Made by a program: the position numbers and the translations under genes. Of a DNA stretch of 27,961 nucleotides, positions 3,846 to 27,947 are shown piece after piece; the stretch's first letter is position 1; every line of letters begins with the position of its first letter. This DNA comes from a bacterium (GTDB lineage: Bacteria; Sysuimicrobiota; Sysuimicrobiia; Sysuimicrobiales; Kaftiobacteriaceae). The stretch spans positions 1 to 27,961 of the forward strand of contig JBIOWP010000095.1 in assembly GCA_044868695.1 (NCBI GenBank), read 5' to 3'. The notes under the pieces are model-generated. The model had not been told where the DNA came from, did not search any database, and saw only the letters and a list, made by a program, of their open reading frames with translations.

Positions 3846-4583
3846 TCAGGCCTTCGCCGGCCGTTTGGTCGTCCGCGGCGTCGCGCGTTCCTCGATCTCG
3901 GCCCGCATGTCGTCCAGGTGCCGCCGAAGGGCGCGCCGCGCCGCCGCGGGCTGCCGGCGCCGTACCGCCTGCAGGATCTCTTGGTGGAAGGTGAGCGCTT
4001 TGCGGGGGCTGGTGGGGCGGCGGCCGGTCTTCTCGCGCGAGCGTTCCCACATCTCGCCCAGGTGGCGGAGCGCGCTGACCAGCACGGGATTGCCGGTCGC
4101 CTCGGCCAGCTGCGTGTGAAACGCCAGGTCGGCGGCCACGTCATGCCGCCCGGCGGCCAGCTCGGCGTCACGGGCGGCGAGGAACTCTCCCAGCGCCTCG
4201 AGATCGTCCCGTGTCGCGCGCCGGGCCGCCAGATGCACGATGCCTTCTTCAAGGATGCGCCGGGCCTCGAGCAGATCCAGCAGGAACGTCCGTTCCGACA
4301 GCAGGCTGTACAGCGACGGGTCGATCGGGGTGGGGGGAGTGGTGGCGACGAAGGTGCCCTCGCCCGGCCGCACCTCGACCACGCCGAGGTAGTCGAGGAC
4401 CCGCAGCGCCTCGCGCACCGACTGCCGGCTGACCGACAGCGTGCCGGCCAGCGCGCGCTCGCCGGGCAGGCGTTCGCCGGGCTGCAGGTGCTCGTCGGCC
4501 AGACGATCTTGAATCTGCCGGACGATGTCTTCGTACACCCGGCTGCGGCGGACGGGTTGGAAGAGAGGCTCGGGCGTCGCCAT
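3846..4583 (-). CDS. GntR-family transcriptional regulator, FadR subfamily (wHTH + FCD domain; PdhR/LldR/GlcC-like)
   Basis: N-terminal [28 protein letters not shown]...[10 protein letters not shown]-terminal [26 protein letters not shown] and HQEILQAV...HL (FCD domain with conserved D/H/H). Confidence 0.92.
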
Positions 4584-4594
4584 GGGGCGTCATC

Positions 4595-4619
4595 GGACTG
4601 GTGGTCAGACCAGCAGTCC
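4595..4619. promoter_or_regulatory. Palindromic operator, probable binding site of the adjacent FadR-type regulator
   Basis: GGACTGgTGGTCaGACCAgCAGTCC: 11 of 12 pairs are complementary around the central A4607. The core TGGT-N3-ACCA is the FadR-subfamily consensus. It lies 11 nt upstream of the regulator ATG. Confidence 0.8.
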
Positions 4620-4626
4620 ATCTTGA

Positions 4627-4656
4627 AGCTTACCCCACCCGGGCGGGTCCCGTCAA
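4627..4656 (-). promoter_or_regulatory. Putative sigma70-type promoter for gntR-fumC-frdAB
   Basis: Minus strand TTGACG (4656-4651), 18-bp spacer, TAAGCT (4632-4627). The predicted start site (~4620) abuts the operator. Confidence 0.6.
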
Positions 4657-4661
4657 GCGCG

Positions 4662-4691
4662 TTGCGGGGATGGCGTCGTTTGCGCTACACT
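4662..4691 (+). promoter_or_regulatory. Putative sigma70-type promoter for icd-mdh-GNAT-sucCD
   Basis: TTGCGG (4662-4667), 18-bp spacer, TACACT (4686-4691), followed by AAGGAGG SD and the icd ATG at 4719. Confidence 0.5.
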
Positions 4692-4718
4692 GTGCCCGCG
4701 AAACGAAGGAGGCCCTCC

Positions 4719-5966
4719 ATGTCGGTTCTGGAGCAGTTGACCCCACCCAAAGAAGGCCAGCGGATCGAAATCAAGGACGGCCACCTCGCGGTGCCCAGCC
4801 TGCCGATCATCCCGTTCATCGAAGGCGACGGGACGGGCCCGGACATCTGGCGGGCGAGCCGGCGCATCTTCGACGCGGCCGTGCAGGCCGCCTACGGCAG
4901 GCAGCGCCGGATCGTCTGGTTCGAAGTCTACGCGGGTGAGAAGGCGAACCAGACCTTCGGCTCGTGGCTGCCCGAAGACACCCTGCGGGCGTTCCAGCAC
5001 TACGTGGTCGGGATCAAAGGGCCCCTGACGACGCCTGTGGGCGGGGGATTCCGCAGCCTCAACGTGGCGCTGCGGCAGATGCTGGATCTCTATGCCTGCG
5101 TCCGGCCGGTGCGCTGGTTCGAAGGCGTCCCCAGCCCCGTCAAGCACCCCGAGTGGGTGGACGTCATGATCTATCGCGAGAACTCGGAAGATATTTACGT
5201 GGGGCTCGAACACCCCAGCAACTCGCCCGAGGCGAAGAAGCTCATCGAGTTTGTCCGCAAGGAGTTTGGGTGGAAGGTGCGCGAGGACGCCGGCGTCGGA
5301 CTCAAACCCATGAGTCCGTTCGGCACGAAGCGGCTCGTGCGCAAGGCGATCCGCTACGCGCTGGACCGGGGCCGCCGCAGCGTGACCCTGGTGCACAAGG
5401 GGAACATCATGAAGTACACTGAGGGCGCTTTCCGGGAGTGGGGCTACGAAGTGGCCAGGGAAGAGTTCGGCGGCGCCACGATCACCTGGGACGACGTCAG
5501 CGCCCACCACGCCGGAAAGGTGCCGCCCGGCAAACTGCTGATCCAGGATTACATCGCCGACGTCACCTTCCAGCACCTGCTCACCCGGCCGCGCGACTTC
5601 GACGTCATCGCGACCGGCAATCTCAACGGCGACTATCTCTCGGACGCGGTCGCCGCGCAGGTCGGCGGACTGGGCATGGCGCCTGGCGGCAATATCAGCG
5701 ACTTCCATGCCGTCTTCGAAGCCACCCACGGCACCGCGCCCAAGTACGCGGGACAGGATAAAGTGAACCCCGGCTCGGTGACGCTGTCGGGCGTGATGAT
5801 GCTGGAATACCTGGGCTGGCACGAGGCGGCTGAACGCATCACGAAGGCGCTGGAGAAGACGTTCAAGCAGAAGATCGTCACCTACGACCTGGCGCGGTTG
5901 ATGGATGGGGCGAAGGAAGTCAAGACCAGCGAGTTCGCGACGGCCGTCATCGACAACCTCGCATGA
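4719..5966 (+). CDS. icd: NADP-dependent isocitrate dehydrogenase (homodimeric, E. coli type)
   Basis: [64 protein letters not shown] (KY NADP determinants), VTYDLAR. True start is the ATG at 4719 after AAGGAGG; the 3918 start in the ORF track is an upstream extension. Confidence 0.96.
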
Positions 5967-12467: not shown

Positions 12468-12545
12468 ATCTGAAGGGGTCGGCTGCGGGCGCACGAATTT
12501 CTACTGCCGGTGCCCGGTCGGAATCCCGCCCGGTCCCGCCGTCCA

Positions 12546-12911
12546 ATGCCAAAGGTGCTGCTCGACTGGTTCTACGTCGCTGTCTTTGCGGCTGTCGGCA
12601 CCGCGATGGCCGTGCTGCCGCTTGTGGTCGTCTGGCTGCTGGCGCCGCGCGCCGATCTCCCCCAGAAAACCATCACCTACGAGTCCGGCGTCATTCCCTT
12701 CGGCCAGGCCTGGGCGCAGTTCAACGTGCGGTATTACCTGTTCGCGCTGATCTTCGTGGTGTTTGACGTCGAGGTAATCTACCTCTACCCGTGGGCGGTC
12801 GTATTCCGCCAGCTCGGCGCGTTTGCGTTCCTGGAGATGGTGCTCTTCCTGATGATCCTCGGTGTGGGACTCGTATACGCCTGGCGCAAAGGGGCCCTGG
12901 AGTGGGTCTAA
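12546..12911 (+). CDS. nuoA: NADH-quinone oxidoreductase subunit A
   Basis: TYESG..P.GQAWAQFNVRYYLFALIFVVFDVE..YLYPWA...YAWRKGALEW. Start is ATG 12546 or GTG 12555. Confidence 0.95.
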   Translation: MPKVLLDWFYVAVFAAVGTAMAVLPLVVVWLLAPRADLPQKTITYESGVIPFGQAWAQFNVRYYLFALIFVVFDVEVIYLYPWAVVFRQLGAFAFLEMVLFLMILGVGLVYAWRKGALEWV

Positions 12912-12915
12912 TCGC

Positions 12916-14097
12916 ATGGCGTGGGTGATCGAACTCTTCAAAGCCATCGGGCTGACGGTTGTGATCTTCACATTTCTGGCCGTCGTCACCGCGATGTTCG
13001 GGGTGTATCTGGAACGCAAGATCAGCGGGTGGATCCAGGCGCGGCTCGGCCCCAAGCACGTCGGGCCGCAGGGCCTCCTGCAGACGATCGCAGACACCGT
13101 CAAGCTGCTGCAAAAAGAACACATCACTCCGCGCGCCGCCGATGCCGTTGTCTTCAATGTCGCCCCGGTCATGGTTGCCGTGGCCGCGTTGCTCGACTGG
13201 ATCGTCATTCCGTTCGGGACGATCGGCGGCCGGGTGCTGATCGTGCGGGACATCAATATCGGAGTCCTGTACTTCGCCGCGATGGCCTCGATCACCGTCG
13301 TTGGGATTCTGGCGGCCGGGTGGTCCAGCAACAACAAGTACGCGCTGCTCGGCGGGCTGCGTTCGGCGTCACAGATGATCAGCTACGAGATTCCCCTGGC
13401 CCTGGGCATCCTGTGGGTGGCGATGGTGGCCGGTACGCTCTCGACCGTGGGCATCGTCGAAGCCCAGGTAAAGCAGGGCGGCTGGTTCATCTTCCGCCTG
13501 CCCCCGCCGGTCGGCTGGCTGGGCGCGCCGTTTGGTCTCCTCGCCGCGGTGACGTTTCTGACGGCCGCGACGGCGGAGGTCAACCGCGTCCCGTTCGACC
13601 TGCCCGAGGCGGAATCGGAACTGGTCGCCGGATACTTCGCCGAATACACCGGCATGCGCTTTGCGCTGTTCCAGCTGGGGGAGTACGGCGAGATGTTCGG
13701 CATGGCGGCGCTGGCGACGATCATGTTCTTCGGCGGGTGGACGGCGCCAAACCTGGAGCCGTGGATGTGGGCGCTGGTCGCGCTCGGGTCGCTCGTGGTG
13801 GCCGGAGTGCTGCTCCTCTCCGGCGCCCGGGCGAACCTCGTCGTGCGGCCCATTCTCATCCTCGCCGTGCTGGGTGTCGCGTTGAGCGTGGCGATGGCGC
13901 TGGGGTTCCATCTCCCCTCGCTGGTGTGGTTTCTGGCGAAACTCTTCGTGCTCGTGTTCTTCTTGATGTGGATGCGGTGGACGTACCCGCGGCTGCGGCT
14001 GGACCAGCTCCTCAACCTCTCGTGGAAAGTACTGCTGCCGCTGGGGCTGATCAACCTGCTGGCCACGGGGTTCATTCTGACGACGTGGAGACGGTAG
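12916..14097 (+). CDS. nuoH: NADH-quinone oxidoreductase subunit H
   Basis: YLERK...QARLGP, GLLQTIADTVKLLQKE, SNNKYALLGGLR, SYEIP, NRVPFDLPEAESELVAGY, PRLRLDQL. ATG at 12916, 4 nt after the nuoA stop. Confidence 0.96.
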   Translation: MAWVIELFKAIGLTVVIFTFLAVVTAMFGVYLERKISGWIQARLGPKHVGPQGLLQTIADTVKLLQKEHITPRAADAVVFNVAPVMVAVAALLDWIVIPFGTIGGRVLIVRDINIGVLYFAAMASITVVGILAAGWSSNNKYALLGGLRSASQMISYEIPLALGILWVAMVAGTLSTVGIVEAQVKQGGWFIFRLPPPVGWLGAPFGLLAAVTFLTAATAEVNRVPFDLPEAESELVAGYFAEYTGMRFALFQLGEYGEMFGMAALATIMFFGGWTAPNLEPWMWALVALGSLVVAGVLLLSGARANLVVRPILILAVLGVALSVAMALGFHLPSLVWFLAKLFVLVFFLMWMRWTYPRLRLDQLLNLSWKVLLPLGLINLLATGFILTTWRR

Positions 14098-14100
14098 GGC

Positions 14101-14592
14101 ATGGGTGAGCTTGCGGCGTTTATCATCCTGTCGCTGGTGACCCTCATTCCGGCTGCCGTCGTCGTCACCTCCGGGAACATCGTCCGCGCCGGCCTGTCGC
14201 TGGTCCCGACCTTCCTCGGGGTCACCGGGTTGTACATCCTGCTCCACGCGGAGTTCGTGGCCGGCATCCAGGTGCTCATCTATGCCGGCGCGATCACCGT
14301 CCTGCTGCTGTTTGTGATTATGCTCACCGAGGGCGGCTCGGGGGTCCGGGTCCGCCAGGTCAACGAGCAGGTGCCCCTCGGCGCCATGGCGGCGGTGTGG
14401 CTGGCCTTCGTCATCATCGTGGTCCTGTCGCGGACGCCGTGGCCGGTCAGCGCCGGCACCGTGCCCGCGTACAGCGTCGTTGCCGTGGGCAATGCGTTCC
14501 TGACCGACTACGTGCTGATCTTTGAGGCGACGAGCCTGGTCCTGCTGGTGTCCCTGGTCGGCGCGATCGTGATTGCGCGGAGAGAAGAATGA
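14101..14592 (+). CDS. nuoJ: NADH-quinone oxidoreductase subunit J
   Basis: LYILLHAEFVAGIQVLIYAGAITVLLLFVIML; FEATSLVLLVSLVGAIVIAR. Confidence 0.94.
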   Translation: MGELAAFIILSLVTLIPAAVVVTSGNIVRAGLSLVPTFLGVTGLYILLHAEFVAGIQVLIYAGAITVLLLFVIMLTEGGSGVRVRQVNEQVPLGAMAAVWLAFVIIVVLSRTPWPVSAGTVPAYSVVAVGNAFLTDYVLIFEATSLVLLVSLVGAIVIARREE

Positions 14593-14900
14593 GTGTGGGG
14601 CTGAACCACTATCTGGTCGTGAGCGCCCTGCTGTTTGGGTTGGGGTTGTACGGCGTGCTGACGCGCCGGAACGCCGTGGCCATCCTCATGGGGATCGAGT
14701 TGATGCTCAACGCGGCCAATATCAACCTGGTGGCGTTCAACCGCTACGTGGCCCCCGGCGCGGTGGCCGGCCAGATCTTCGCCCTGGTCATCATCACCCT
14801 GGCGGCCTGCGAGGCGGCGGTGGGGCTGGCACTGGTGCTGGCCGCCTACCGGAGCCTTGAGACGATCCACGTCGACGAGATCAACGTGATGAAGTGGTAA
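14589..14900 (+). CDS. nuoK: NADH-quinone oxidoreductase subunit K
   Basis: RRNAVAILMGIELMLNAANINL and AACEAAVGLA (both conserved Glu); ATGA overlap with nuoJ. Confidence 0.95.
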   Translation: MSVGLNHYLVVSALLFGLGLYGVLTRRNAVAILMGIELMLNAANINLVAFNRYVAPGAVAGQIFALVIITLAACEAAVGLALVLAAYRSLETIHVDEINVMKW

Positions 14901-14910
14901 CGGGAACGCA

Positions 14911-16839
14911 ATGCTCCAAGTAGCCTGGCTGATCCCGCTGCTGCCGTTTGTCGACTTCTGGCTGATTACTTTCTGGGGCGGGCGGCTGCCCGGCCAGGGC
15001 GCCTACGTGGCCATTGGCGCGCTCGGGCTCTCCGCGCTCATCTCGCTGGTGATCCTGGGGCAGACGATCGCCGGCGCCACGTACGATGCCAGCCTCGTCT
15101 GGGCGATGCTGGGGGACCGGCCGCTCGAGATCGGGTATGCGGTGGACGGGCTCACCGCCGTGATGCTGTTTGTGGTGACCGTGGTGGGCTCGCTGATCTT
15201 CATCTACTCGACCGGCTACATGCACGGGGATCCCCGCTACCCGCGGTTCTTCGCCTACCTGTCGCTGTTCGCCGCGTCAATGTTGATCCTCGTCCTGGCG
15301 AACAATTTCCTCCTGCTGTATGCCGGGTGGGAACTGGTGGGCTTGTGCTCGTACCTGCTGATCGGATTTTGGTTCGAGCGGCCGGCCGCCGCGCGGGCCT
15401 CGATGAAGGCGTTTGTGACCACCCGGGTCGGCGACTTCTTCATGTTCCTAGGGATCCTGCTCGTCTTCTTCACGGCGGGGTCGCTGCGCTTCGACGCCGC
15501 TTTTGACGCGGTCGAGGCCGGACACCTGGCCGGCCCGCTGCTGACCCTGATCGCGGTGCTGATCTTCGGCGGGGCGGTGGGCAAATCCGCGCAGGTGCCG
15601 CTGCACGTGTGGCTCCCGGATGCGATGGAGGGTCCGACGCCGGTGTCGGCGCTTATTCACGCCGCCACGATGGTCGCCGCCGGCGTGTACCTGGTGGCCC
15701 GCACGTACCCTCTGTTCTTCGGCAGTCCCGACCACGCCGCGCTGACCGTGGTGGCGTACATCGGCGGCATCACCGCCCTCATGGCCGCCACCATCGGGAT
15801 CGTGCAGGACGATATCAAGCGCGTGCTGGCCTACTCGACGATCAGCCAGCTCGGGTACATGATGCTGGGCCTGGGCGTCCTCGGTTATACCGCCGGCGTC
15901 TTTCATCTCATGACGCACGCGTTCTTCAAGGCCCTGCTGTTCCTCGGCGCCGGCTCGGTCATTCACGCGATGCAGACCAATGACCTCAAGCAGATGGGCG
16001 GTCTGGCGAAGGTGATGCCGGCCACTTACGCGACGATGCTCGTGGGCGCCCTTGCGCTGGCCGGCGTGCCGCCCTTTGCCGGCTTTTGGAGCAAGGACGA
16101 GATTCTGCTTGAGACCTACCACCACAACCCCGGGTTGTTCTACCTGGGAGCGGCCGGCGCATTTGTGACGGCCTTCTACGTGTTCCGGATGATCTTCTAC
16201 GCGTTTACCGGGACGCTGCGCAGCCACGGCGCGCATCCGCACGAGTCGCCGAAGGTGATGACCGTGCCGCTGATCGTGCTGGCGGTGTTCTCCGGCCTCA
16301 TCGGGCTACTGGGTGCGCCGTGGCCCAGGGTCGGGAGCCTGTTCCATCACTTCGTCCACTTCGAGACGGCGGAAACGGTGCCGTTCGACCTGACGTTTGC
16401 GCTGATGTCCACGGGCATCGCGGGCGCAGGCATCCTCGCCGCGGCGGTCGTCTACCACTGGCAGTGGGTCTCCTCCGCGGCCCTGCGCCGCTGGCTTGCG
16501 CCGCTGTACGCGGTGTTGGCGCACAAGTATTGGTGGGACGAGATGTACGCCTTCGCCGTCGTGCGGCCGACCGTGTGGACGGCACAGCGGCTTCGGACCT
16601 TCGATGTGTACGTGATCGACGGTGCGGTGAACGCCGTGGGGATCATCTTCGTCTGGCTGTCGCGGCTGTACCGCGTGTTCGACCTGTACGTGGTGGATGG
16701 CGCCGTGAACCTGGTGGGCTGGATGGCGACCGCCGCCGGCGGCGTGCTGCGCCACGTCCAGACCGGCCGGGCCCAGAACTACTTGCTGGTCATCGCGCTC
16801 GGCGTGATCGCGCTGGCGGTGATCGGCATTACGCGCTAG
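14911..16839 (+). CDS. nuoL: NADH-quinone oxidoreductase subunit L with an extended amphipathic helix
   Basis: YSTGYMHGD, WELVGLCSYLLIGFW, GKSAQVPLHVWLPDAMEGPTPVSALIHAATMV, HAFFKALLF, FWSKDEI, QTG..QNY. Confidence 0.96.
   Translation: MLQVAWLIPLLPFVDFWLITFWGGRLPGQGAYVAIGALGLSALISLVILGQTIAGATYDASLVWAMLGDRPLEIGYAVDGLTAVMLFVVTVVGSLIFIYSTGYMHGDPRYPRFFAYLSLFAASMLILVLANNFLLLYAGWELVGLCSYLLIGFWFERPAAARASMKAFVTTRVGDFFMFLGILLVFFTAGSLRFDAAFDAVEAGHLAGPLLTLIAVLIFGGAVGKSAQVPLHVWLPDAMEGPTPVSALIHAATMVAAGVYLVARTYPLFFGSPDHAALTVVAYIGGITALMAATIGIVQDDIKRVLAYSTISQLGYMMLGLGVLGYTAGVFHLMTHAFFKALLFLGAGSVIHAMQTNDLKQMGGLAKVMPATYATMLVGALALAGVPPFAGFWSKDEILLETYHHNPGLFYLGAAGAFVTAFYVFRMIFYAFTGTLRSHGAHPHESPKVMTVPLIVLAVFSGLIGLLGAPWPRVGSLFHHFVHFETAETVPFDLTFALMSTGIAGAGILAAAVVYHWQWVSSAALRRWLAPLYAVLAHKYWWDEMYAFAVVRPTVWTAQRLRTFDVYVIDGAVNAVGIIFVWLSRLYRVFDLYVVDGAVNLVGWMATAAGGVLRHVQTGRAQNYLLVIALGVIALAVIGITR
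16600..16755 (+). repeat. 78-nt (26-codon) diverged tandem duplication inside nuoL
   Basis: ttcgatgtgtacgtgatcgacggtgcggtgaacgccgtggg (from 16600) vs ttcgacctgtacgtggtggatggcgccgtgaacctggtggg (from 16678), i.e. FDVYVIDGAVNAVG / FDLYVVDGAVNLVG. Confidence 0.9.
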
Positions 16840-16852
16840 TCGGAGGGACGCG

Positions 16853-18346
16853 ATGCTGAGTTTGATCATCTTCCTGCCCCTGATCGGCGGAATCATCATT
16901 CTCTTCACGTCCAAGACCAACGAGCCGCTGATGAAAGGGGTGGCGCTGGGCGCGTCTCTGGCCTCCTTCGTCCTGTCGCTGTTCATGACGGCTCTGTACA
17001 AGATCGGCGGCGGCATGCAGTTCGTCGAGCTCTACAGCTGGATTCCCGGGTTGGGGATCAACTATCAGCTCGGCACGGACGGCTTGAGCCTGCCGCTGAT
17101 CGTCCTGACGACGCTGCTGAGCCTGCTGTCGGTCGTCTACTCCTGGCGCATCGAGATGCGCCTGAAGGAATACCTCTTCTTGTTCCTCCTGCTGGAGACC
17201 GGCATGCTGGGCGTCTTCGCGGCCCTGGACTTCTTTTTGTTCTACATCTTCTGGGAGATCACGCTGGTCCCGATGTACTTCCTCATCGCTATCTGGGGCG
17301 GACCGCGCCGGGAGTACGCCGCCATCAAGTTCTTCCTCTACACGCTGGTGGGATCGCTGGCGATGCTGCTGGCCATCCTGCTGCTGTACTTTAACGCCGA
17401 GCCGCACACGTTCAATATGCTGGAGCTGATCCGCCAGCAGCCGCTGGCCGGGCAGACCCTCCTGGCCGCGCTCGCCTTCTGGGGCTTCTTCCTCAGCTTC
17501 GCCATCAAGGTGCCGATGTGGCCGTTTCACACCTGGCTGCCCGACGCGCACGTCGAGGCGCCCACGGCCGGCAGCGTGATCCTGGCCGGTATCCTGCTGA
17601 AGATGGGCACCTATGGGTTCGTGAGGGTCAGCCTGCCGATGCTGCCGGAAACGTTCCGGGCGTTCGCGCCGGCGGTGGCGGTGCTCGCGCTCCTGGGGAT
17701 CGTCTACGGCGCGCTGGTAGCGATGGCGCAGACCGACCTCAAGAAGCTGGTCGCCTACAGCTCTGTCAACCACATGGGGTACGTGATGCTGGGCACCGCG
17801 GCCGCGGCGGCGGCGGTCGGCAGCCCGGAGAAGGCGGCGGCCGCGGCGATCGCCCTCAACGGCGCGGTGTTCGAGATGATTGCGCACGGCATCATCACGG
17901 GGGCGTTGTTCTTGATTGTCGGCGTCCTGTATGACTACCGGGCGCACACCCGTGGGGTAAACGAGTTCGGCGGCCTGGGGGTGCGGCTGCCGATGTACAC
18001 CGGGATCACGACAATCGCGATGCTGGCCTCGCTGGGGCTGCCGGGGTTGATGGGCTTCGTCGCGGAGTTCTTCGTCTTCGTCGGTTCGTTCGGCGTCTTT
18101 CCGTACCTGACGGCCGTGGCGGTGACCGGCGTCATCTTCACCGCCGCCATGTTCCTGTGGACGATCCAGCGGGTTTTCCTTGGCCCCATCAATGAGCGGT
18201 GGGCCGGGCTGCCGGATATGGACACGCGGGAGAAGATTTCGCTCATGCCGCTGGCCGTGCTGATGGTGCTCTTCGGCCTGTACCCCAAACCGCTGCTGGA
18301 CGTGATCAACGCGGCCATGATTGGCCTCGTGACCGCGCTGCGATAG
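16853..18346 (+). CDS. nuoM: NADH-quinone oxidoreductase subunit M
   Basis: DGLSLPL, FWEITLVPMYFLI..WG, AIKVPMWPFHTWLPDAHVEAP, LLKMGTYG, AYSSVNHMG, GFVAEF; GGAGG SD. Confidence 0.96.
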   Translation: MLSLIIFLPLIGGIIILFTSKTNEPLMKGVALGASLASFVLSLFMTALYKIGGGMQFVELYSWIPGLGINYQLGTDGLSLPLIVLTTLLSLLSVVYSWRIEMRLKEYLFLFLLLETGMLGVFAALDFFLFYIFWEITLVPMYFLIAIWGGPRREYAAIKFFLYTLVGSLAMLLAILLLYFNAEPHTFNMLELIRQQPLAGQTLLAALAFWGFFLSFAIKVPMWPFHTWLPDAHVEAPTAGSVILAGILLKMGTYGFVRVSLPMLPETFRAFAPAVAVLALLGIVYGALVAMAQTDLKKLVAYSSVNHMGYVMLGTAAAAAAVGSPEKAAAAAIALNGAVFEMIAHGIITGALFLIVGVLYDYRAHTRGVNEFGGLGVRLPMYTGITTIAMLASLGLPGLMGFVAEFFVFVGSFGVFPYLTAVAVTGVIFTAAMFLWTIQRVFLGPINERWAGLPDMDTREKISLMPLAVLMVLFGLYPKPLLDVINAAMIGLVTALR

Positions 18347-18353
18347 GAGACGA

Positions 18354-19802
18354 ATGAATCCGGCCAACCTGCAGGCCGATCTGTGGTCGCTCGCCCCGGA
18401 GCTCTGGCTCCTGGGGCTGGGCCTGCTGATCCTGCTGGTCGATCTGGTCGTCCCGCAGGGCCGCAAGGCGGCCGTTGGACTGCTGGCCGTCGTGGGGCTG
18501 CTGCTGGCGCTCATCCCGGCGTCGTCGATGGTGTCCTGGCAGCCGCGGACGGTGCTGTTCGGGACATACGCCGTCGATGGCTTCGCGGTATTCTTCAAGA
18601 TCATCGCGATTGTCGCCACGGCCCTGGTGATTCTGTCGGCGGTGGATTCCCTGGGCCGGCAGACGCGCTTCGAGGGCGAGTTCTACGCGCTGCTGGTGTT
18701 CACCGCCGTGGGCTTGATGTTGATGGCGGCCAGCACCGACCTGATCCTGCTCGCGCTGGCCATCGAGTTGGTGAGTCTCACCTCGTACGTGCTGGCCGGG
18801 TTCCTCAAAGCGGATCCCAAGAGCAACGAGGCCGGGATCAAGTACTTCTTGTTCGGCGCCGCGGCGTCCGCGGTGATGTTCTACGGGTTTTCGCTCGTCT
18901 ATGGGCTGACCGGCACGACGAACCTGTACGCGATCGCGGCGCGGCTGGGCGCCTCGCCGGCTCCGGCGCTGTACCTGGCGCTGGCGCTGATGCTGGCCGG
19001 CTTCGGGTTCAAGATCTCGATGGTGCCGTTCCACCAGTGGACGCCGGACGTCTACGAAGGAGCGCCGACGCCGGTCGCGGCCTTCCTCTCCGTCGGGTCC
19101 AAGGCGGCGGGGTTCGCGGCCCTGGTGCGGGTCCTCCTGGTTGCCGTGGATCCCGCGCGCGCGAACTGGGTGCTGCTGCTCGCGGTGCTGGCCGCCGTGT
19201 CGATGACGCTCGGTAACCTGCTGGCGCTGCCTCAGCGCAACATCAAGCGCATGCTGGCGTATTCAAGCATCTCTCACGCCGGGTTCTTGCTGATCGGCGT
19301 GGCGGCGTTTCGCGGTGCGTTCGGCACGCCGGGCCTGCTGGTGTACTTGCTCGGGTACACGTTTACGCAGCTTGGGGCGTTCTTCGTCGCCACCCTGATC
19401 GGGACGCAGCTGCGGTCTGACGAGATCCCGGACTACGCCGGCCTGGCGCGGCGCGCGCCGGTCTCGGCCTTCTTGATGGCGGTGTTCATGCTCTCGCTCA
19501 CGGGATTGCCGCCCACGTCGGTCTTCTTGGGAAAGTTCTACGTCCTGGCGGCGGCGATCGACAACAACCTCCTGTGGCTGGCCGTCGTCGGGATCGTGAA
19601 CAGCGTCGTGTCCCTGTACTACTATGTCGGCGTCATCCGCGCCATGTACGTGATGCCGGCGGCGTCTGAGGTCCCGCTGACGGAGCCCGCCGGGCTGCAG
19701 GTGGCGTTGGGCATCACCGGTCTGGGGACCTTGATCATCGGCCTGTACCCGCAGCCACTGCTCGAGCTGGTTCGCTCGGCGGCGGTGCTGCTGCGCCTCT
19801 AG
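18354..19802 (+). CDS. nuoN: NADH-quinone oxidoreductase subunit N
   Basis: LAPEL, IELVSLTSYVL, EAGIKYF, FKISMVPFHQWTPDVYEGAPTP, GSKAAG, KRMLAYSSISHAG, FLGKF, SLYYY. Confidence 0.96.
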   Translation: MNPANLQADLWSLAPELWLLGLGLLILLVDLVVPQGRKAAVGLLAVVGLLLALIPASSMVSWQPRTVLFGTYAVDGFAVFFKIIAIVATALVILSAVDSLGRQTRFEGEFYALLVFTAVGLMLMAASTDLILLALAIELVSLTSYVLAGFLKADPKSNEAGIKYFLFGAAASAVMFYGFSLVYGLTGTTNLYAIAARLGASPAPALYLALALMLAGFGFKISMVPFHQWTPDVYEGAPTPVAAFLSVGSKAAGFAALVRVLLVAVDPARANWVLLLAVLAAVSMTLGNLLALPQRNIKRMLAYSSISHAGFLLIGVAAFRGAFGTPGLLVYLLGYTFTQLGAFFVATLIGTQLRSDEIPDYAGLARRAPVSAFLMAVFMLSLTGLPPTSVFLGKFYVLAAAIDNNLLWLAVVGIVNSVVSLYYYVGVIRAMYVMPAASEVPLTEPAGLQVALGITGLGTLIIGLYPQPLLELVRSAAVLLRL

Positions 19803-19811
19803 CCGGTTGCC

Positions 19812-19841
19812 TTGACTGCCTTCTCTGCGGTCTGTTATGAT
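19812..19841 (+). promoter_or_regulatory. Near-consensus sigma70-type promoter for the V/A-ATPase operon
   Basis: TTGACT (19812-19817), 18-bp spacer, extended -10 TGtTATGAT (19833-19841). Confidence 0.75.
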
Positions 19842-19899: not shown

Positions 19900-19942
19900 C
19901 TCAGGTAGCGCCCCCTCCCAACCAGTCCATCAGGTGACGGCG

Positions 19943-20287
19943 ATGACGGGCAAGCACGGCCCCGCGGATGAGAACCTCCTGCAGGTCATTGCGGCGAAAG
20001 AGAAAGAACTCGAGTCCCGCGTCGCCCAGGCCAAGGCGGAGGCGCGCCGCATCCTGGACGAGGCCCAGGTCCGCGCGGAGGCAGCGCGTGATCAGGCCCG
20101 CCGCAGTGTCGCCGAACTGGAGCAGCGGGTGCGGGCGGAGATCGCGCGCGAGACCGAGCACGCCGCCGCCCAGCGCCTGGCCGCCGCTCAGGAAGAGGCT
20201 CAGCGGGTCCGCGCGCGCGCGTCCGAACGGACGCGCGACGCGGTCGACCTGGTCGTCAAACGCGTGCTCGACGGGCTGGCCGGATGA
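19943..20287 (+). CDS. V/A-type ATP synthase peripheral stalk subunit G (H)
   Basis: Ala/Glu/Arg-rich coiled coil ending AVDLVVKRVL; first gene of the operon, with ATGA overlap into subunit I. AGGTGA SD favours ATG 19943 (alternative GTG 19934). Confidence 0.82.
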   Translation: MTGKHGPADENLLQVIAAKEKELESRVAQAKAEARRILDEAQVRAEAARDQARRSVAELEQRVRAEIARETEHAAAQRLAAAQEEAQRVRARASERTRDAVDLVVKRVLDGLAG

Positions 20288-22302
20288 TCGTCGAGATGAG
20301 CCGGGTCCTGGTGTTTGGGCCCAAGCGTCTGTTGGGTCAGGTCATCGAGGAGATTCAGCGGCTCGGCGCCCTCCACATCGACCGGATCGAATCAGAAGAG
20401 GCGCCTGAAGTCAGCGCTCTGCAGCTGGCAGAGGATGACGCCAGGACGCTGCAGACGCTGGAGCGGGCGCTGGTGCGGGTCGAGGGCGTCCTCGCGCTGC
20501 TGCCTCCTGCGCCGGCGGATGGCGCCGCCCCCATTCAGGATGCCACGGTGGACGCGGTCGACGCGGAAGTTGCCGGGATTGAGAAGGGGGTCCGCGACCT
20601 CACGCGAACGCGTCTTGAGCTGGACGAGGAGCGGACCCTGATCGCGTCCTACGAAGGGGCGGTGCGTGTCCTGTCCCCGCTGCTCTCCGCCCTTGCCAAC
20701 AGCAAGGCATTCGAATCCATCGGGTTTGTCCTCAACACGAAAGACCTCACCGTTGTGGCCGCGCTGCGGAACGAGCTCGCCAAGATCACGGAAGGGCGGG
20801 TCGAGGTCATCAGCCGCGTGGTCGACGAGAACCGCGTCGGCGTCGTCGTCGCGTTCCGGCGCGAGGATGCCGAGCGAGTCCGCGGGATCCTCTCGCGCGC
20901 CGGCGGGACGGAACTGCGGCTGCCCGCGCGCTTCACGCGTGAGCAGCCCATGGAGACGATCGCGGCGATGGAGCGGCGGAAGGCCGAGATCCCCGCCGAG
21001 GTGGCACGGATTGACCAGGAGCTTGCCGCCCTCGCGAAGTCGTCGCGGCCCCGGCTGCTGGCCATCCGGAGCTGGCTGGCCGACCGGCTGGCGCAGATGA
21101 AGGTCGTGCCGGATCTCTCCCAATCTCGGTACACCTTTATCGTGCACGGATGGGCGCCGGCGCGGGTGGTGAGCCAAGTCCGCGGAGTCTTGCGCGCCCG
21201 GTTCGGGTCCGAGATCGTCGTGCACGACGAGCCGGTCGATCCGCATGGAGAGCCCGAGCGGGTGCCGGTCCTGCTGGACAACCATCCGTTGATCCGTCCA
21301 TTCCAGCGGCTGCTGGCGCTGTTCCAGCCGCCGCGCTACGGCGCGTGGGATCCCAGCCCGGTGATGGCGATCACGTTTCCCATCTTCGTGGGCCTCGTCA
21401 TCGGCGACGTGGGCTATGGACTTCTTCTGTTTCTTCTGGGTTGGTGGTTCAGGGACCGAGCGCGGAGCGGACAGCCTTTAAACATTAACTTTCTCAGTAT
21501 GCGATTTCCGGTCCCCTTGCTGGCGGATCTTGCGTACCTTCTACGTGTTCTGGCCTTCTGGATCATGCTGTTTGGGGTCGTTTATGCAGAGTTCTTCGGC
21601 AATTTGCCGGAGCTATTGTTCCACGTTGAGCCTTTCTATGATCGGGTTCACGAGTCCGAGAATTACTTCATCCTCATCATCGCGGCAGGAATTGTGATGA
21701 TTTTCTTTGGCCTGCTCGTTCACCTCATCCAGGCAATCCGGCATAGACACGCGATTGCGGTGTTCGAGTCGATTGTCATCGTGCTGGGAACGGCAGGCCT
21801 CCTGCTATTTCTGGGTGCGCAGGGAGGGCGACTGCCGGCCGAGCTCGGTCCGGTCGGTCTGTACCTATTCCTCGCGGCCGTCGCCGTGGCAATGATTTCG
21901 CTTGTTGTGGACCGCGATGTTATGAAGCGCTTCCTATGGCTGTTGGAGAGTACGTCGGCATTTGGTCATATCGTGTCTCACGCTCGATTGATGGCGTTCG
22001 GTCTCGCTGCAGCCGCGCTTGCAACAGCCGCCAACCAACTGGGGCCTGACATGACGAGGGAATTTGGCAGGCAGTTGCCCGGCATTTTTGCGTTCCCCTT
22101 CACGGGATTCTTGGGACGCATCGTCGCGGTGCTTATCACAATTATCGCCCAGTCGATGTTCCTCGTTTTCACAATTCTGGGGCACCTGATCCAGCCTGCT
22201 CGTCTGCATTGGGTGGAGCTCTTTACGAAGCTTAAGTATTTCGATGAAACCGGCCGGTCGTACCGCCCGTTTCAAAAGTCTGCGCCCTCGGGTCGCGGGT
22301 GA
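20284..22302 (+). CDS. atpI: V/A-type ATP synthase subunit I (a)
   Basis: MIVEMSRV...LGALHI, GWAP, VPVLLDN, PRYGAWDPSP, IGDVGYG, SHARL (essential Arg), RLHWVELFTK, YRPF. Confidence 0.94.
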   Translation: MIVEMSRVLVFGPKRLLGQVIEEIQRLGALHIDRIESEEAPEVSALQLAEDDARTLQTLERALVRVEGVLALLPPAPADGAAPIQDATVDAVDAEVAGIEKGVRDLTRTRLELDEERTLIASYEGAVRVLSPLLSALANSKAFESIGFVLNTKDLTVVAALRNELAKITEGRVEVISRVVDENRVGVVVAFRREDAERVRGILSRAGGTELRLPARFTREQPMETIAAMERRKAEIPAEVARIDQELAALAKSSRPRLLAIRSWLADRLAQMKVVPDLSQSRYTFIVHGWAPARVVSQVRGVLRARFGSEIVVHDEPVDPHGEPERVPVLLDNHPLIRPFQRLLALFQPPRYGAWDPSPVMAITFPIFVGLVIGDVGYGLLLFLLGWWFRDRARSGQPLNINFLSMRFPVPLLADLAYLLRVLAFWIMLFGVVYAEFFGNLPELLFHVEPFYDRVHESENYFILIIAAGIVMIFFGLLVHLIQAIRHRHAIAVFESIVIVLGTAGLLLFLGAQGGRLPAELGPVGLYLFLAAVAVAMISLVVDRDVMKRFLWLLESTSAFGHIVSHARLMAFGLAAAALATAANQLGPDMTREFGRQLPGIFAFPFTGFLGRIVAVLITIIAQSMFLVFTILGHLIQPARLHWVELFTKLKYFDETGRSYRPFQKSAPSGRG

Positions 22303-22310
22303 TCGTGGAC

Positions 22311-22356
22311 GCTTGACGAGGGCTTGACGCGGGCTTCACGCTCGCAAGAGTAAGAT
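22311..22356 (+). promoter_or_regulatory. Three 11-bp-period direct repeats (GCTTGACG, GCTTGACG, GCTTCACG) followed by a -10-like TAAGAT; possible internal regulated promoter
   Basis: Repeats start at 22311, 22322 and 22333; TAAGAT is at 22351-22356, 10 bp after the last repeat, in the atpI-atpK gap. Confidence 0.45.
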
Positions 22357-22392
22357 GGGCTGGGAGCAGCCACTACGCGGGAGGTGAGTGGG

Positions 22393-22713
22393 GTGAAGAG
22401 AGCTGGAGGTGCAGTGATCGTGGCGTTGGCGGTGACGCTGCTGGTCGCCGCGGCGGCGAATGCCGCTCCTGAGGAGTCGGCGGCGACGCCGGCGGGGGCG
22501 AGCGCCGGACTGCTGGGGCTGGCCGCGGCGATCGCCGTGGGGCTGGGGGCCATCGGAACGGCGTGGGCGCAGTCCCGGATCGGTGCGGCGGCTGCCGGCG
22601 CGATCGCGGAGCGGCCGGAGATGGGCGGCTTGATGCTGGTCTTCCTGGCGCTGCCGGAAACGATGGTGATCCTCGGCTTCCTGGTGGCATTCTTCGTCAT
22701 CGGCAAGATCTAG
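22393..22713 (+). CDS. atpK: V/A-type ATP synthase proteolipid subunit K (c/L), single hairpin with N-terminal signal peptide
   Basis: GLGAIGTAWAQSRIGAAAAGAIAERPE...LALPETMVILG with the ion-carrying Glu. GGAGGTGA SD favours GTG 22393 (alternative 22384). Confidence 0.93.
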   Translation: MKRAGGAVIVALAVTLLVAAAANAAPEESAATPAGASAGLLGLAAAIAVGLGAIGTAWAQSRIGAAAAGAIAERPEMGGLMLVFLALPETMVILGFLVAFFVIGKI

Positions 22714-22715
22714 CA

Positions 22716-23297
22716 GTGGCATCTGAACTCGTCGCCATCCTTGAGAAAGAAGCCGCCGCGGAGGTCGAGCGGGCTCTCGCGGAGGCGCGCGCGCAGGCGG
22801 AGCAGCTCGTCGCGCAGGCCACGGAGGAAGCGCAGACCTACCTCGCCGCGCAGCGGCAGCGGCTGGAGGCAGAACGGAAGGCCGCGCAGGTCAAGGCGGA
22901 GAGTGCGGCTCAGGTCAAAGCGTCGGCGTTGATCCTCCAGGCGAAGGACCAGGCCATCGGGGACGTGTTCGCCGCCGCAGAGGCGGAGTTGTCCAGCGTA
23001 CAGCAGGATCGGACCCGCTACGGCGCCGTGCTGCGTGGGTTAATCCGGGAGGCCGCCGAAGGACTGGCCGGCCGGATCACCGTGGATATCAACCCGAAGG
23101 ATCTGGATCTCGCCAGGCAGGCGGGCAAGGAGTTGAAGCTGGACGCCGAGGTCAAGGCGGCCGACGACGTGAGTGGCGGCGCGCGCGTGATCTCTGACGA
23201 CGGCCGGTTCATTGTCGAGAACACCCTGGCCTCGCGCGTCGAGCGGGTGAAACCGCTGCTGGGCCCCGAGATCGCCGCCCTCCTCTGGGGACAATGA
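22716..23297 (+). CDS. atpE: V/A-type ATP synthase subunit E
   Basis: N-terminal coiled coil (LVAILEKEAAAEVERALAEA), then INPKD...GGARVISDDGRFIVENTLASRVE. GTG start at 22716. Confidence 0.9.
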   Translation: MASELVAILEKEAAAEVERALAEARAQAEQLVAQATEEAQTYLAAQRQRLEAERKAAQVKAESAAQVKASALILQAKDQAIGDVFAAAEAELSSVQQDRTRYGAVLRGLIREAAEGLAGRITVDINPKDLDLARQAGKELKLDAEVKAADDVSGGARVISDDGRFIVENTLASRVERVKPLLGPEIAALLWGQ

Positions 23298-23318
23298 CGT
23301 GAGACCCCGCCGGCCTCC

Positions 23319-23346
23319 GAATCATGAATCACGATTCACGATTCAC
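23319..23346. repeat. Heptamer micro-repeat with inverted halves: GAATCAT GAATCAC GATTCAC GATTCAC
   Basis: Read directly in the atpE-atpC gap; ends 4 nt before the atpC ATG. Confidence 0.8.
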
Positions 23347-23350
23347 GCGC

Positions 23351-24382
23351 ATGCCTGATTTTCCGTATATCAACGCGCGGGTTCGAGCGATGCGCAGCCG
23401 CCTACTGGACGCCGGCCGGATGGAAGAGTTCCTGGGGCTGCCGACGCTGGACGCGTTGATCCAGACGCTGGGTTCCACGCCCTACGGTCAGCAGCTGCAG
23501 GAGGCGCTCACCCGCACCGTGGACGGGCTGCACGCGATCGACGACGCGCTGGCCCGCAACTTCTATCTCACTACCACCAGGATCCAAAGTTTCGCTGACG
23601 GCAAACCACGGGAACTCATCGAGCTCGTCCTCATGCAGTGGGACCTCGCCAACATCCGGGTGATCCTGCGTGCGAAGCATGCCGGCCGGCGCGACGACGA
23701 AATCCTCTCCAATCTGGTCCCGGCCGGCCGGTTGAATGAGCCTGCGTTGAAGGAGATCGCCGCGCAGCCGGACATCCCGGGGGTGGTGGGGGCGCTGGGA
23801 GGGCTGGATCACCCACTCGCGGCGCCGCTCGCAGAAGGGCTGGGCGCGTACCGCGAGACAGGCGACCTTCTCGATCTCGAGCTGCGGCAGGATCGCTTCT
23901 ATGCCGCGTACGGGCTGCGCGTGGCCCCAGGGCGGGGGCACGATGAACAGATTGTCCGCGGCCTGTTACAGTATCAGCTAGACGCGACCAACGTCCGGAC
24001 GGCCGTCAAGCTGCAACAGGTCAGTGCACTCTCCCGGGACGAGAAGTTGAAGTTCTTCATCCCCGGCGGCCGGCTGACGCCGAACGCGTTCCTGGAAGTC
24101 GCGGATCCCGCCAGCGCGGAGCGCGGGATGCACGCGGTGCGGGTGCTCGGCTTCCCAGTCAAGGCGTCCCTGAAGGATCCGGCGTCGTTCGAGCGGGAAG
24201 TCGAGGTGGCCATGCTCCGCGCGCAGATCGGCCTCTACCTGCAGGATCCGCTGGGCATCGGCATCGTGATCGCCTTCCTGGCGATGAAGAACGCCGAAGT
24301 CGCGAATCTCCGCCTGATCGCGCGGGGCAAGGCGCTCGGCATCCCCCGCGATCGGGTGAGAAAAGAAATGGCGCTGGTGTAG
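23351..24382 (+). CDS. atpC: V/A-type ATP synthase subunit C (d)
   Basis: MPDFPYINARVRAMRSRLL, TPYG, WDLANIRVILR, IPGG, EVANLRLIARGK. ATG 23351 is preferred because the 23324 start lies inside the micro-repeat. Confidence 0.92.
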   Translation: MPDFPYINARVRAMRSRLLDAGRMEEFLGLPTLDALIQTLGSTPYGQQLQEALTRTVDGLHAIDDALARNFYLTTTRIQSFADGKPRELIELVLMQWDLANIRVILRAKHAGRRDDEILSNLVPAGRLNEPALKEIAAQPDIPGVVGALGGLDHPLAAPLAEGLGAYRETGDLLDLELRQDRFYAAYGLRVAPGRGHDEQIVRGLLQYQLDATNVRTAVKLQQVSALSRDEKLKFFIPGGRLTPNAFLEVADPASAERGMHAVRVLGFPVKASLKDPASFEREVEVAMLRAQIGLYLQDPLGIGIVIAFLAMKNAEVANLRLIARGKALGIPRDRVRKEMALV

Positions 24383-24384
24383 CG

Positions 24385-24705
24385 GTGGCCCATAAGATGG
24401 CGGTCATCACTGATCTCGAGACTGCCACCGGGTTCCGCCTTGCCGGGGTTGAGGTCAGAGCGGCGGCGGACGCAAAGGCGGCCGTGGAGCATTTGCGCGC
24501 GCTGGTCGCGGCGGACTACGGGCTGGTCGCGATGAACGAGGATCTTCTCACGGGCGCCGAACACGAGGTGTCTCGTTTGATGCGCGACCGCGACCTGCCG
24601 ATTATCGTGCCTTTCCCTGCGGCGAAGGCGCAGATTGAAAGCGGCGAAGATTACGTGGCGCGACTTGTGAAAGAACACATTGGGTTCTATGTGAAATTGC
24701 GCTAG
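24385..24705 (+). CDS. atpF: V/A-type ATP synthase subunit F
   Basis: [19 protein letters not shown]...PIIVPFP...LVKEHIGF. Confidence 0.93.
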
Positions 24706-24709
24706 GATG

Positions 24710-24750
24710 TGGAACGACGGGAACGAGGGAACACGGGAACGAGGGAACGA
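24710..24750. repeat. Octamer tandem repeat, about 5x GGGAACGA
   Basis: TGGAACGAC GGGAACGA GGGAACAC GGGAACGA GGGAACGA, directly followed by the GGAGGGG SD of atpA. Confidence 0.85.
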
Positions 24751-24761
24751 GGAGGGGCGAA

Positions 24762-26525
<1,764 letters not shown>

Positions 26526-26534
26526 GGGGCTGAC

Positions 26535-27947
26535 ATGGAGCTCACGACCAAGCGTTATCAGTCCATCTCGTACATCTCGGGCCCGCTGCTGTTCGTGGAG
26601 GGCGCGCGGGACCTGGCCTACGGGGCCATCGTCAACATCCACCTGCCCGACGATACAGTGCGCGGCGGTCAGGTCATCGAGGTGTCCGAGAAGAACGCGG
26701 TGATCCAGGTGTTCGAAGAGACCACCGGATTGGACCTGGCCAAGACCTCGATCAGTCTTCGCGAAGACGTGGCGCGGCTGGGCGTGTCCCGGGAGATGAT
26801 CGGCCGGCGGTTCAACGGCCTGGGCGATCCGATCGACGGGCTGCCGCCCCTGATCCCGGAGAAGCGCATCCCGATCATCGGCGCGCCAATCAACCCGGTC
26901 GCCCGCCAGCGGCCGCAGGAGTTCATCCAGACCGGCATCTCGGCCATCGACGGCCTCAACACGCTGGTGCGCGGCCAGAAGCTGCCGATCTTCAGCGGCG
27001 CCGGCCTGCCCCACAACGAGATCGCCGCCCAGATCGCCCGCCAGGCCAAGGTGCTAGGCAGCGCGGAACAGTTTTCGGTCGTGTTCGCGGCGATGGGGAT
27101 CACGCAGCGGGAGGCAGCGTTCTTCATCGACCAGTTCGAATCCACCGGCGCGCTGGCGCGGTCGGTGGTCTTTCTAAACCTGGCCGATGACCCCGCCATC
27201 GAACGGTTGATTACCCCGCGTGTCGCGCTCACCGCCGCCGAGTACCTGGCGTTTGAGATGGAGATGCAGGTGCTCGTCATTCTCACAGATATGACAAACT
27301 ACTGTGAAGCGCTGCGTGAGATCGGCGCCGCCCGCGAAGAGATTCCCGGCCGCCGCGGGTATCCCGGCTACATGTACACCGACCTGGCTACCATTTACGA
27401 GCGCGCCGGCCGCATCCATGGGCGCAAAGGCTCGATCACGCAGTTGCCGATCTTGACCATGCCCGACGACGACATTACCCACCCGATCGCCGACCTGACC
27501 GGTTACATCACCGAGGGGCAAATCCTCTTGAGCCGCGAGCTGCACCGGCTGGGGATCTACCCGCCGATTACCCCGCTGCGCAGTCTGTCCCGGCTGATGA
27601 ACGACGGCATCGGGAAGGGCCGGACCCGGGAGGACCACGGCGCACTGCGCGACCAGCTCTATTCCGCGTACGCAAACGGCGTCGACCTGCGCAAACTGGT
27701 GGCGATCATCGGCGAAGAGGCGCTGACCGACCGCGACCGGTTGTACCTACGCTTCGGCGACGACTTCAAGCGGCGGTTCCTCAGCCAGGGTCAGACGGAG
27801 CGCTCGATCGAGGACACCCTGACGTCGGCCTGGAAGCTCCTGTCCATGTTCCCGAAGGGAGAACTCAAGCGCGTCAAGCAGGACCACATCGACAAGTACT
27901 ACGGAGATCTTATGGAGGAGACGTGGCGGGATAAGACGCGCGTCTAA
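26535..27947 (+). CDS. atpB: V/A-type ATP synthase subunit B
   Basis: [68 protein letters not shown]. Confidence 0.97.

What the first reader, a model, noticed from the sequence alone, without database searches (positions are those of the whole stretch)
16530..16790. NuoL carries the 26-aa '2M-type' extension of its transverse helix, but the operon has only one nuoM
Seen: the NuoL C-terminus contains a tandem duplication with a period of exactly 26 aa (78 nt), FDVYVIDGAVNAVG at 16600 and FDLYVVDGAVNLVG at 16678. The span from the DEMY motif to the Q of QTG is 75 residues, versus about 48 in Thermus Nqo12 as I recall it. Known: this helix clamps NuoL across NuoM to NuoN, and complex I homologs with a second NuoM ('2M' complexes, e.g. 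in Chloroflexi and Nitrospirae) have it lengthened by about 26 aa, the width of one antiporter-like subunit. Here nuoL-nuoM-nuoN are contiguous (13- and 7-nt gaps) with a single nuoM. Inference: the enzyme may incorporate two copies of one NuoM, recruit a fourth antiporter-like subunit encoded elsewhere, or be a gain/loss intermediate. The first two options would be a 'cryptic' extra-pump complex I that surveys counting nuoM genes would miss.
Basis: partly seen in the sequence, partly recalled or inferred. Interest (0 to 1): 0.85.

Follow-up and report, generated by a model that had tools for sequence, protein, structure and literature searches.

The report
One nuoM gene likely used twice
The bracing helix of this bacterium's second respiratory complex I is longer by exactly one pump-width although its operon holds a single gene for the middle pump subunit, and it likely builds two copies of that one subunit into each enzyme, which would make four-pump complexes far more common than gene counts suggest.

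Summary
Observation confirmed. NuoL's lateral helix holds a 26-residue tandem duplication (span 75 versus 49 in solved NdhF1), followed by one nuoM. The operon is the membrane arm (nuoAHJKLMN) of a split 11-subunit complex I; the genome's only other nuoM lies in a canonical short-helix operon.

Long helix with one nuoM is already in print (Yu 2022, Manganitrophaceae), widespread in my survey, and was noted at least eight times by this scan on other DNA.

New here:
(1) Both repeats keep an invariant docking motif.
(2) nuoM has a stronger Shine-Dalgarno site in long-helix single-nuoM operons (median about -10 kcal/mol) than in the sister family that lost the repeat (-6.3) or in true two-gene 2M operons (about -7).
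(3) Trees nest two-gene 2M NuoL inside long-helix single-nuoM lineages, so this is not a 2M relic.

Best reading (0.6): an L-M-M-N arm built from one nuoM gene.

Against: no structure or complex model; the Shine-Dalgarno score is a weak proxy; Vicinamibacterales-type loci do not show the signal; the window's own accessibility estimate favours nuoN.

The parts
12510..12911 (+). nuoA, first gene of the membrane-arm operon (ORF limits; true start may lie a few codons in)
   Evidence: NCBIfam and Pfam matches
12862..14097 (+). nuoH (likely start 12916); carries a family-f1 insertion unrelated to helix length
14101..14592 (+). nuoJ
14589..14900 (+). nuoK
14911..16839 (+). nuoL, 642 aa, with lengthened lateral helix HL
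16525..16758 (+). lateral helix HL, residues 539-616, modelled as one continuous helix with falling confidence
16600..16677 (+). HL repeat 1 (residues 564-589), D-x4-D-x2-V-N-x2-G motif invariant in 34 of 34 long orthologues
16678..16755 (+). HL repeat 2 (residues 590-615), same motif; closest to the single repeat of short-helix family f3
16759..16833 (+). QTG turn and last transmembrane helix (622-641), the inferred NuoN-side anchor
16842..16847 (+). strong Shine-Dalgarno site of nuoM (duplex -10.0 kcal/mol; nuoL -4.3, nuoN -7.3)
16853..18346 (+). single nuoM, 497 aa, with E135, K219, K250 and E405 intact
18354..19802 (+). nuoN, 482 aa

Best explanation
This is the membrane arm of a split, 11-subunit complex I whose NuoL lateral helix carries one extra 26-residue docking module, and it likely assembles as L-M-M-N with two copies of the single nuoM product. 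Shown: the duplication, the single gene, the absence of an extra antiporter gene in the assembly, the conservation of both motifs, and the stronger predicted ribosome-binding site of nuoM. Inferred: each module lies on one NuoM (26 x 1.5 A = 39 A, about one subunit width by recall); QTG and the last helix dock on NuoN as usual; the helix therefore acts as a ruler for NuoM copy number; nuoM is translated about twice as often as nuoL and nuoN; B-D-I-C from contig C27 complete the enzyme; and, with no NuoEFG, a low-potential donor such as ferredoxin pays for one more proton per two electrons.
For: (1) Quantised length: 33 of 40 orthologous loci have span 75 and 7 have 49, none in between. Other lineages step through 75-79, 101-103, 129 and 153. 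(2) D565, D570, V573, N574, G577 and D591, D596, G597, V599, N600 are invariant in 34 of 34 long orthologues, with no proline in 555-614. (3) Residues up to about 564 superpose on E. coli NuoL at 2.0-2.1 A, which puts repeat 1 where the canonical motif sits; repeat 2 is the one most like f3's single repeat (16 versus 11 of 26). (4) nuoM Shine-Dalgarno score: -9.9 in long operons (n=36) versus -6.3 in f3 (n=11), while H, J, K, L and N medians change by 1 or less; canonical operons score -5.0 (n=31). The nuoM start is ATG in 33 of 34 long and GTG in 10 of 11 f3 operons. (5) Metagenome loci: single-M long operons M -10.2 versus L -5.75, M stronger than L in 18 of 18; true two-gene operons M1 -6.75, M2 -7.1, L -7.1, 8 of 19. 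(6) Within-genome long versus short pairs in three other groups: M stronger in 11 of 15, M-minus-N lower in 12 of 13; in a fourth phylum M beats N in 5 of 5 long and 9 of 18 short loci. (7) Positive control: the c-ring gene atpK beats atpI in 22 of 22 loci, and window scores follow V-ATPase copy number roughly. (8) Two-gene 2M NuoL nests among long single-M NuoL, and f3 nests among long forms.
Against: There is no structure, complex model or expression data. In E. coli the Shine-Dalgarno score does not correlate with initiation rate, and complex I is a named exception to proportional synthesis (PMC10542608, passages). In 29 Vicinamibacterales-type long single-M loci M scores -3.2 against N -8.6, stronger in only 5 of 29. 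In the window itself, adding the mRNA opening energy ranks nuoN above nuoM. One-copy genes also drift: nuoA is -6.4 in long and -11.0 in f3, and nuoK is often strong. Five of the eight scored f4 loci have a stronger site on nuoL than nuoM, and many short operons in the fourth phylum have strong nuoM sites. In the metagenome set nuoN is as strong as nuoM (-10.8). Kin are not independent, so the effective number of contrasts is about four or five and the p-values overstate. Model confidence falls from about 80 to 41 along the helix, and a low-confidence single-sequence model breaks it at module edges. Spans of 101-153 with one nuoM would need three to five copies.
Confidence: 0.6

Rival explanations
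1. The arm is an ordinary L-M-N. The extra module is taken up as slack (kink or hairpin on the membrane surface), or it runs on past NuoN so that the last helix docks nearer NuoJ/A/H.
For: One nuoM is the usual partner of the long helix across phyla. Module number changes between close relatives with no gene change: L291 span 101 and L334 span 75 share 94% NuoL core identity. The single-sequence model breaks at module edges. The ribosome-site signal fails in Vicinamibacterales-type loci.
Against: No intermediate lengths, both motifs invariant, no prolines. Repeat 2 keeps the M-type motif instead of drifting. The alignment-based model gives one continuous helix. The nuoM site weakens when the repeat is lost and when a second nuoM gene is present.
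Confidence: 0.27
2. The second slot is filled by a different antiporter-like protein encoded elsewhere, here the NuoM of the canonical operon on C107.
For: G000 and nearly all relatives carry a canonical operon with its own nuoM. In two-gene 2M operons the second M is of foreign origin, 35% identical to the first, so foreign subunits can fill the slot. Four of five tested long-helix genomes of another phylum hold a further three-antiporter cluster.
Against: G098 has a long helix and only L, M and N in the whole assembly (draft genome). The short-helix family f3 also has the canonical operon. Canonical nuoM sites are weak (-5.0), the opposite of what supplying two complexes would predict.
Confidence: 0.08
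3. It is a decaying relic of a two-gene 2M operon that lost one nuoM, or a transient state on the way to gaining one.
For: Same split layout as Chloroflexi-type 2M operons (PMC7117926 passages; loci). Yu et al. offer this reading for Manganitrophaceae. Family f3 did lose the repeat.
Against: Exact length and invariant motifs are kept across five families whose NuoL share as little as about 54% identity. The window's NuoM groups with single-M long forms, not inside either 2M paralogue clade, and two-gene NuoL is nested among single-M long forms.
Confidence: 0.05

Closest known systems
2M complex I (Chadwick et al. 2018; paper not held, known here only through PMC9040806, PMC6606698, PMC7117926 and PMC7419157)
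   Same: Lateral helix lengthened by about 26 aa; no NuoEFG with this gene set; membrane-arm operon split from nuoBCDI as described for the Chloroflexi type.
   Different: One nuoM gene, not two. In the 28 two-gene loci I examined, the two Ms are divergent paralogues, and all 25 full-length second Ms lack the TM7 lysine that the window's NuoM keeps.
Complex_I_1 and Complex_I_2 of Ca. Manganitrophaceae (Yu et al. 2022, PMC9040806, section 10 read whole)
   Same: Canonical gene content with the 26-aa insertion in NuoL; the authors suggest these can already hold more pumping subunits or are in transition.
   Different: Those genomes also encode a five-pump cluster with spare paralogues; this genome has none. 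That section offers no test of stoichiometry.
Canonical three-antiporter complex I / NDH-1 (6hum, 3rko, 4he8; also the C107 operon of this genome)
   Same: NuoL fold (Z about 51-54), L-M-N gene order, charged residues of NuoM.
   Different: The helix is one 26-residue module shorter; in several rows the solved helix is matched only to about model residue 590.

Membership tests
2M complex I | NuoL lateral helix lengthened by about 26 residues | tested here: met
   span 75 versus 49-50
2M complex I | second nuoM gene in the operon | tested here: not met
   single nuoM in the window and in every intact orthologous locus of 40; 6 antiporter-like genes in G000, i.e. 2 x L/M/N
2M complex I | four antiporter-like subunits in the assembled enzyme | not testable with these tools
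   needs a structure or quantitative proteomics; only indirect proxies here
2M complex I, Chloroflexi type | nuoBCDI encoded apart from the membrane-arm operon | tested here: met
   B-D-I-C on C27, A-H-J-K-L-M-N on C95; C and D are not fused, unlike the description in PMC7117926
11-subunit complex I without NADH module | A,B,C,D,H,I,J,K,L,M,N present and no dedicated NuoE/F/G | tested here: met
   E/F and G queries hit only the C107 operon; genome 95% complete; pairing of the C27 and C95 genes is inferred
11-subunit complex I without NADH module | ferredoxin or flavodoxin as electron donor | not testable with these tools
   two 2-oxoacid:ferredoxin oxidoreductase-type genes are present; donor not shown
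NuoM-type antiporter-like subunit | Glu TM5, Lys TM7, Lys TM8, Glu TM12 | tested here: met
   E135, K219, K250, E405 in 79 of 79 long single-M sequences; assignment to helices by recall of the E. coli pattern
canonical three-antiporter complex I | helix with one docking module between the L anchor and QTG | tested here: not met
   two modules

The most novel reading that the evidence does not exclude
The NuoL lateral helix is a molecular ruler that sets how many copies of one NuoM polymerise between NuoL and NuoN: spans of 49, 75, 101, 129 and 153 would mean one to five copies from a single gene. Bacteria could then change proton stoichiometry by a 78-nt duplication or deletion, and two-gene 2M operons would be late specialisations of a widespread hidden M2 enzyme.
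Probability: 0.3. Interest if true: 0.9.

Novelty: new variant of a known kind. Interest (0 to 1): 0.6.

Why it matters
Proton stoichiometry of complex I is usually read from gene counts. If one nuoM gene can be used twice, four-pump enzymes are common in Sysuimicrobiota, Armatimonadota, Acidobacteriota, Latescibacterota and other groups, and the energy budgets drawn from their genomes are off. It would also supply the missing step in the origin of 2M complexes (same subunit twice first, second gene later) and a simple way to engineer pump number. The claim is directly testable by an M:L:N ratio or one cryo-EM map.

Tried and rejected
1. Complex prediction of two NuoM copies was not available, so no complex was modelled.
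2. No expression data were obtained, and the search of 50%-identity representatives never ran.
3. Chadwick 2018 is not held. It and its supplements, and Fig. S2 of Yu 2022, were not seen and may already discuss single-nuoM long helices.
4. An apparent second long-helix structure (6tjv_F) is, on reading the alignment, the canonical anchor matched to repeat 1.
5. A second independent loss of the repeat (L271, L272, L274), suggested by the NuoM tree, is not supported by the NuoL tree and is dropped.
6. The NuoH insertion does not track helix length.
7. Insertions of 0.9-4 kb between nuoL and nuoM in four metagenome loci are not antiporter genes.
8. A search for NuoM residues specific to long-helix operons gave only clade markers, mostly shared with f3.
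9. Codon-bias and mRNA-folding proxies were weak: small shifts against f3, none clear against canonical operons except GC3.
10. The single-sequence model of the tail was low quality (pLDDT 62, pTM 0.29).
12. No internal promoter before nuoM.
13. The record label Actinomycetota on L182 is not used: its genome falls in the same phylum as G061.
14. The functional role of E. coli NuoL D563 is recalled only; the search found no paper with that term.

Full report
1. Observation. The two motifs start at 16600 and 16678, 78 nt apart, in the 642-aa NuoL (14911-16839); D543 to Q617 is 75 residues. The self-match (11 of 14) was reached by 0 of 2000 shuffles. The same span is 49 in solved NdhF1 6hum_F and 50 in this genome's other NuoL. 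AlphaFold with a 44-sequence alignment gives one helix over 539-616, with block confidence falling from about 80 to 41. The model superposes on E. coli NuoL to residue 562-564 at 2.0-2.1 A, and several solved chains are matched only to about residue 590.

2. Context. The window holds nuoA-H-J-K-L-M-N only, between yvcK and a V-type ATPase operon. B-D-I-C lie on contig C27; a complete nuoA-N operon with fused E/F and a short helix lies on C107; E/F and G have no second copy. G000 (95% complete) has 6 antiporter-like genes, two sets of L/M/N. G004, G027 and G039 also have 6; G012 and G045 have 8. The closest named records are labelled Armatimonadota, CSP1-3 and Ca. Fervidifonticultor, which points to Sysuimicrobiota (PMC11604079, passages). 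That this split set works with ferredoxin is inference; two 2-oxoacid:ferredoxin oxidoreductase-type genes exist.

3. Relatives. All 61 genomes searched match NuoL. I fetched 50 orthologous places. Of the first 40, 33 have span 75 and 7 have 49; with 10 more and the window, 38 scored 75, 12 scored 49, and one was unscored there but 75. Short forms are all family f3; f1, f2, f4, f5 and f7 are long; f6 was not examined. Gene order is the same, with one nuoM, in both. No consistent third NuoM appears in the listed matches (251 weaker matches were not listed). In 34 long sequences both repeats keep D-x4-D-x2-V-N invariant, and f3's single repeat is closer to repeat 2.

4. Breadth. Of 80 genome loci chosen by likeness to the long tail, none is L-M-M; 45 lie outside this order, 41 of them with spans of 75-76 and 4 frameshifted. 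In samples drawn from three groups, 79 of 90 loci had an upstream NuoL tail: 35 long, 43 short, 1 frameshifted and dropped; 13 labels were set by hand; none had M followed by M. Of 80 metagenome loci, 25 are long with one M, 28 have two M genes, and 27 were truncated or unscorable. Spans of 101-103, 129 and 153 occur; four of the 101-103 loci show L-M-N. So the state is widespread, as eight earlier notes of this scan said, and in print for Manganitrophaceae (PMC9040806, section 10 read whole).

5. History. FastTree trees, rooted on the canonical paralogues, on thinned sets (162 NuoM, 124 NuoL cores without the helix). In the NuoL tree f3 nests inside the long split clade (supports 0.996, 0.891, 0.841), and two-gene NuoL nests among long single-M NuoL (0.969, 0.965, 0.905). 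In the NuoM tree the first M of two-gene operons is sister to long single-M forms (0.963); the second M comes from another lineage (1.0); the window's NuoM groups with single-M long forms. The long single-M state is therefore older than this two-gene state. This fits one subunit used twice, but also a helix that was merely pre-adapted.

6. A stoichiometry proxy. If M is needed twice, nuoM should be initiated more strongly. I scored pairing to a generic anti-Shine-Dalgarno. Control: atpK beats atpI in 22 of 22 loci; in the window atpK -11.6, atpA -12.3, atpB -8.4, atpI -4.3, atpC -1.7, atpF -5.1, atpG -3.8 (best of nearby starts, which can inflate atpK). Window: nuoM -10.0, nuoN -7.3, nuoK -6.6, nuoJ -6.4, nuoL -4.3; about 16% of 452 roughly called genes reach -10. 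Own order: nuoM is the strongest of L/M/N in 29 of 37 long, 5 of 12 f3 (one row faulty, M absent) and 8 of 31 canonical operons; gene by gene only M (-9.9 versus -6.3) and, in the opposite direction, A change much. Single-M versus two-gene operons: M -10.2 versus -6.75 and -7.1, with N alike (-10.8, -11.5). Other groups: -8.0 (n=34) versus -5.6 (n=43); pairs within genomes 11 of 15 and 12 of 13. Fourth phylum: of 30 loci, 3 without a full M and 4 with atypical tails were dropped; M beats N in 5 of 5 long (one read by hand) and 9 of 18 short.

7. Against. Vicinamibacterales-type loci: M -3.2, L -2.8, N -8.6, M stronger than N in 5 of 29; the other 12 outside loci are mixed, 6 of 11. Adding mRNA opening energy keeps M best in 27 of 34 long operons, but in the window it ranks N first. 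In E. coli the Shine-Dalgarno score does not predict initiation, and complex I departs from proportional synthesis (PMC10542608, passages). The contrasts are few once kinship is allowed for. No complex model or expression data could be obtained.

8. Mechanism. Shown: duplication, single gene, conservation, tree nesting, ribosome-site contrasts. Inferred: each module docks on one NuoM (the helix is described as connecting TM7 helices, PMC7419157, passages); QTG and the last helix dock on NuoN; the arm is L-M-M-N; both copies keep their charged residues and would pump; a low-potential donor would pay for the extra proton, as proposed for 2M enzymes (PMC6606698, passages). I put this at 0.6, a 1:1:1 arm with slack or overshoot at 0.27, a borrowed subunit at 0.08 and a relic at 0.05.

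9. Known versus new. It would work like a 2M complex but is not a member by the two-gene criterion. Searches listed no paper that tests copy number or proposes two copies from one gene; Chadwick 2018 could not be read and may. PMC7117926 was seen as passages, PMC8129789 only as a reference hit; the other papers only as listings. Subunit width, helix numbering and V-ATPase copy numbers are recalled. Verdict: a new variant of a known kind; the mismatch is old news, the indirect evidence for a hidden M2 arm is the addition.

Noticed in passing
L294, L309, L328, L340 and other two-gene loci among L284-L363; also L271, L272, L274: The second NuoM of these two-gene 2M operons lacks the TM7 lysine in 25 of 25 full-length cases; it may be a spacer or pump differently. 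One literature search did not address it.
   Followed up: partly
L284, L285, L286, L291, L292, L293, L295; proteins P0105, P0106, P0109, P0110: NuoL helices with two to four extra modules (spans 101-153). L291 (101) and L334 (75) are 94% identical in the NuoL core, so modules are gained recently.
   Followed up: partly
window 12862-14097: NuoH carries an insertion of about 65-70 hydrophobic residues near its C-terminus, seen in the family f1 sequences checked and absent in those of f3, f4, f7 and one of f5.
   Followed up: partly
L298:6266-10327, L301:2768-4334, L323:4111-5974, L361:7330-8211, L352:4011-6713: Cassettes of small genes that look like toxin-antitoxin, nucleotidyltransferase/HEPN and DUF-type genes by eye sit inside nuo operons, between nuoL and nuoM or between the two nuoM genes.
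   Followed up: no
G000:C107:20665-22479 (L001): NuoE and NuoF appear fused in one 604-aa ORF in the canonical operon.
   Followed up: no
G000:C27, L002:8436-11307: The peripheral genes are in the order B-D-I-C, apart from the membrane arm and next to a two-component pair.
   Followed up: partly
window 3918-5966: Isocitrate/isopropylmalate dehydrogenase domain at residues 298-677 of a 682-aa ORF with about 300 unassigned N-terminal residues (possibly an upstream start miscall), in a cluster with malate/lactate dehydrogenase, succinyl-CoA ligase, fumarate reductase and aspartase-like genes.
   Followed up: no
window 19812-19841 and 19934-27947: A sigma-70-like promoter match just after nuoN precedes the V-type ATPase operon, whose Shine-Dalgarno scores roughly follow subunit copy number.
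   Followed up: partly
L146-L192: Vicinamibacterales-type long-helix clusters have the order A-C-D-H-J-K-L-M-N, without B and I in the stretch held, and mostly lack Shine-Dalgarno sites on K, L and M.
   Followed up: no
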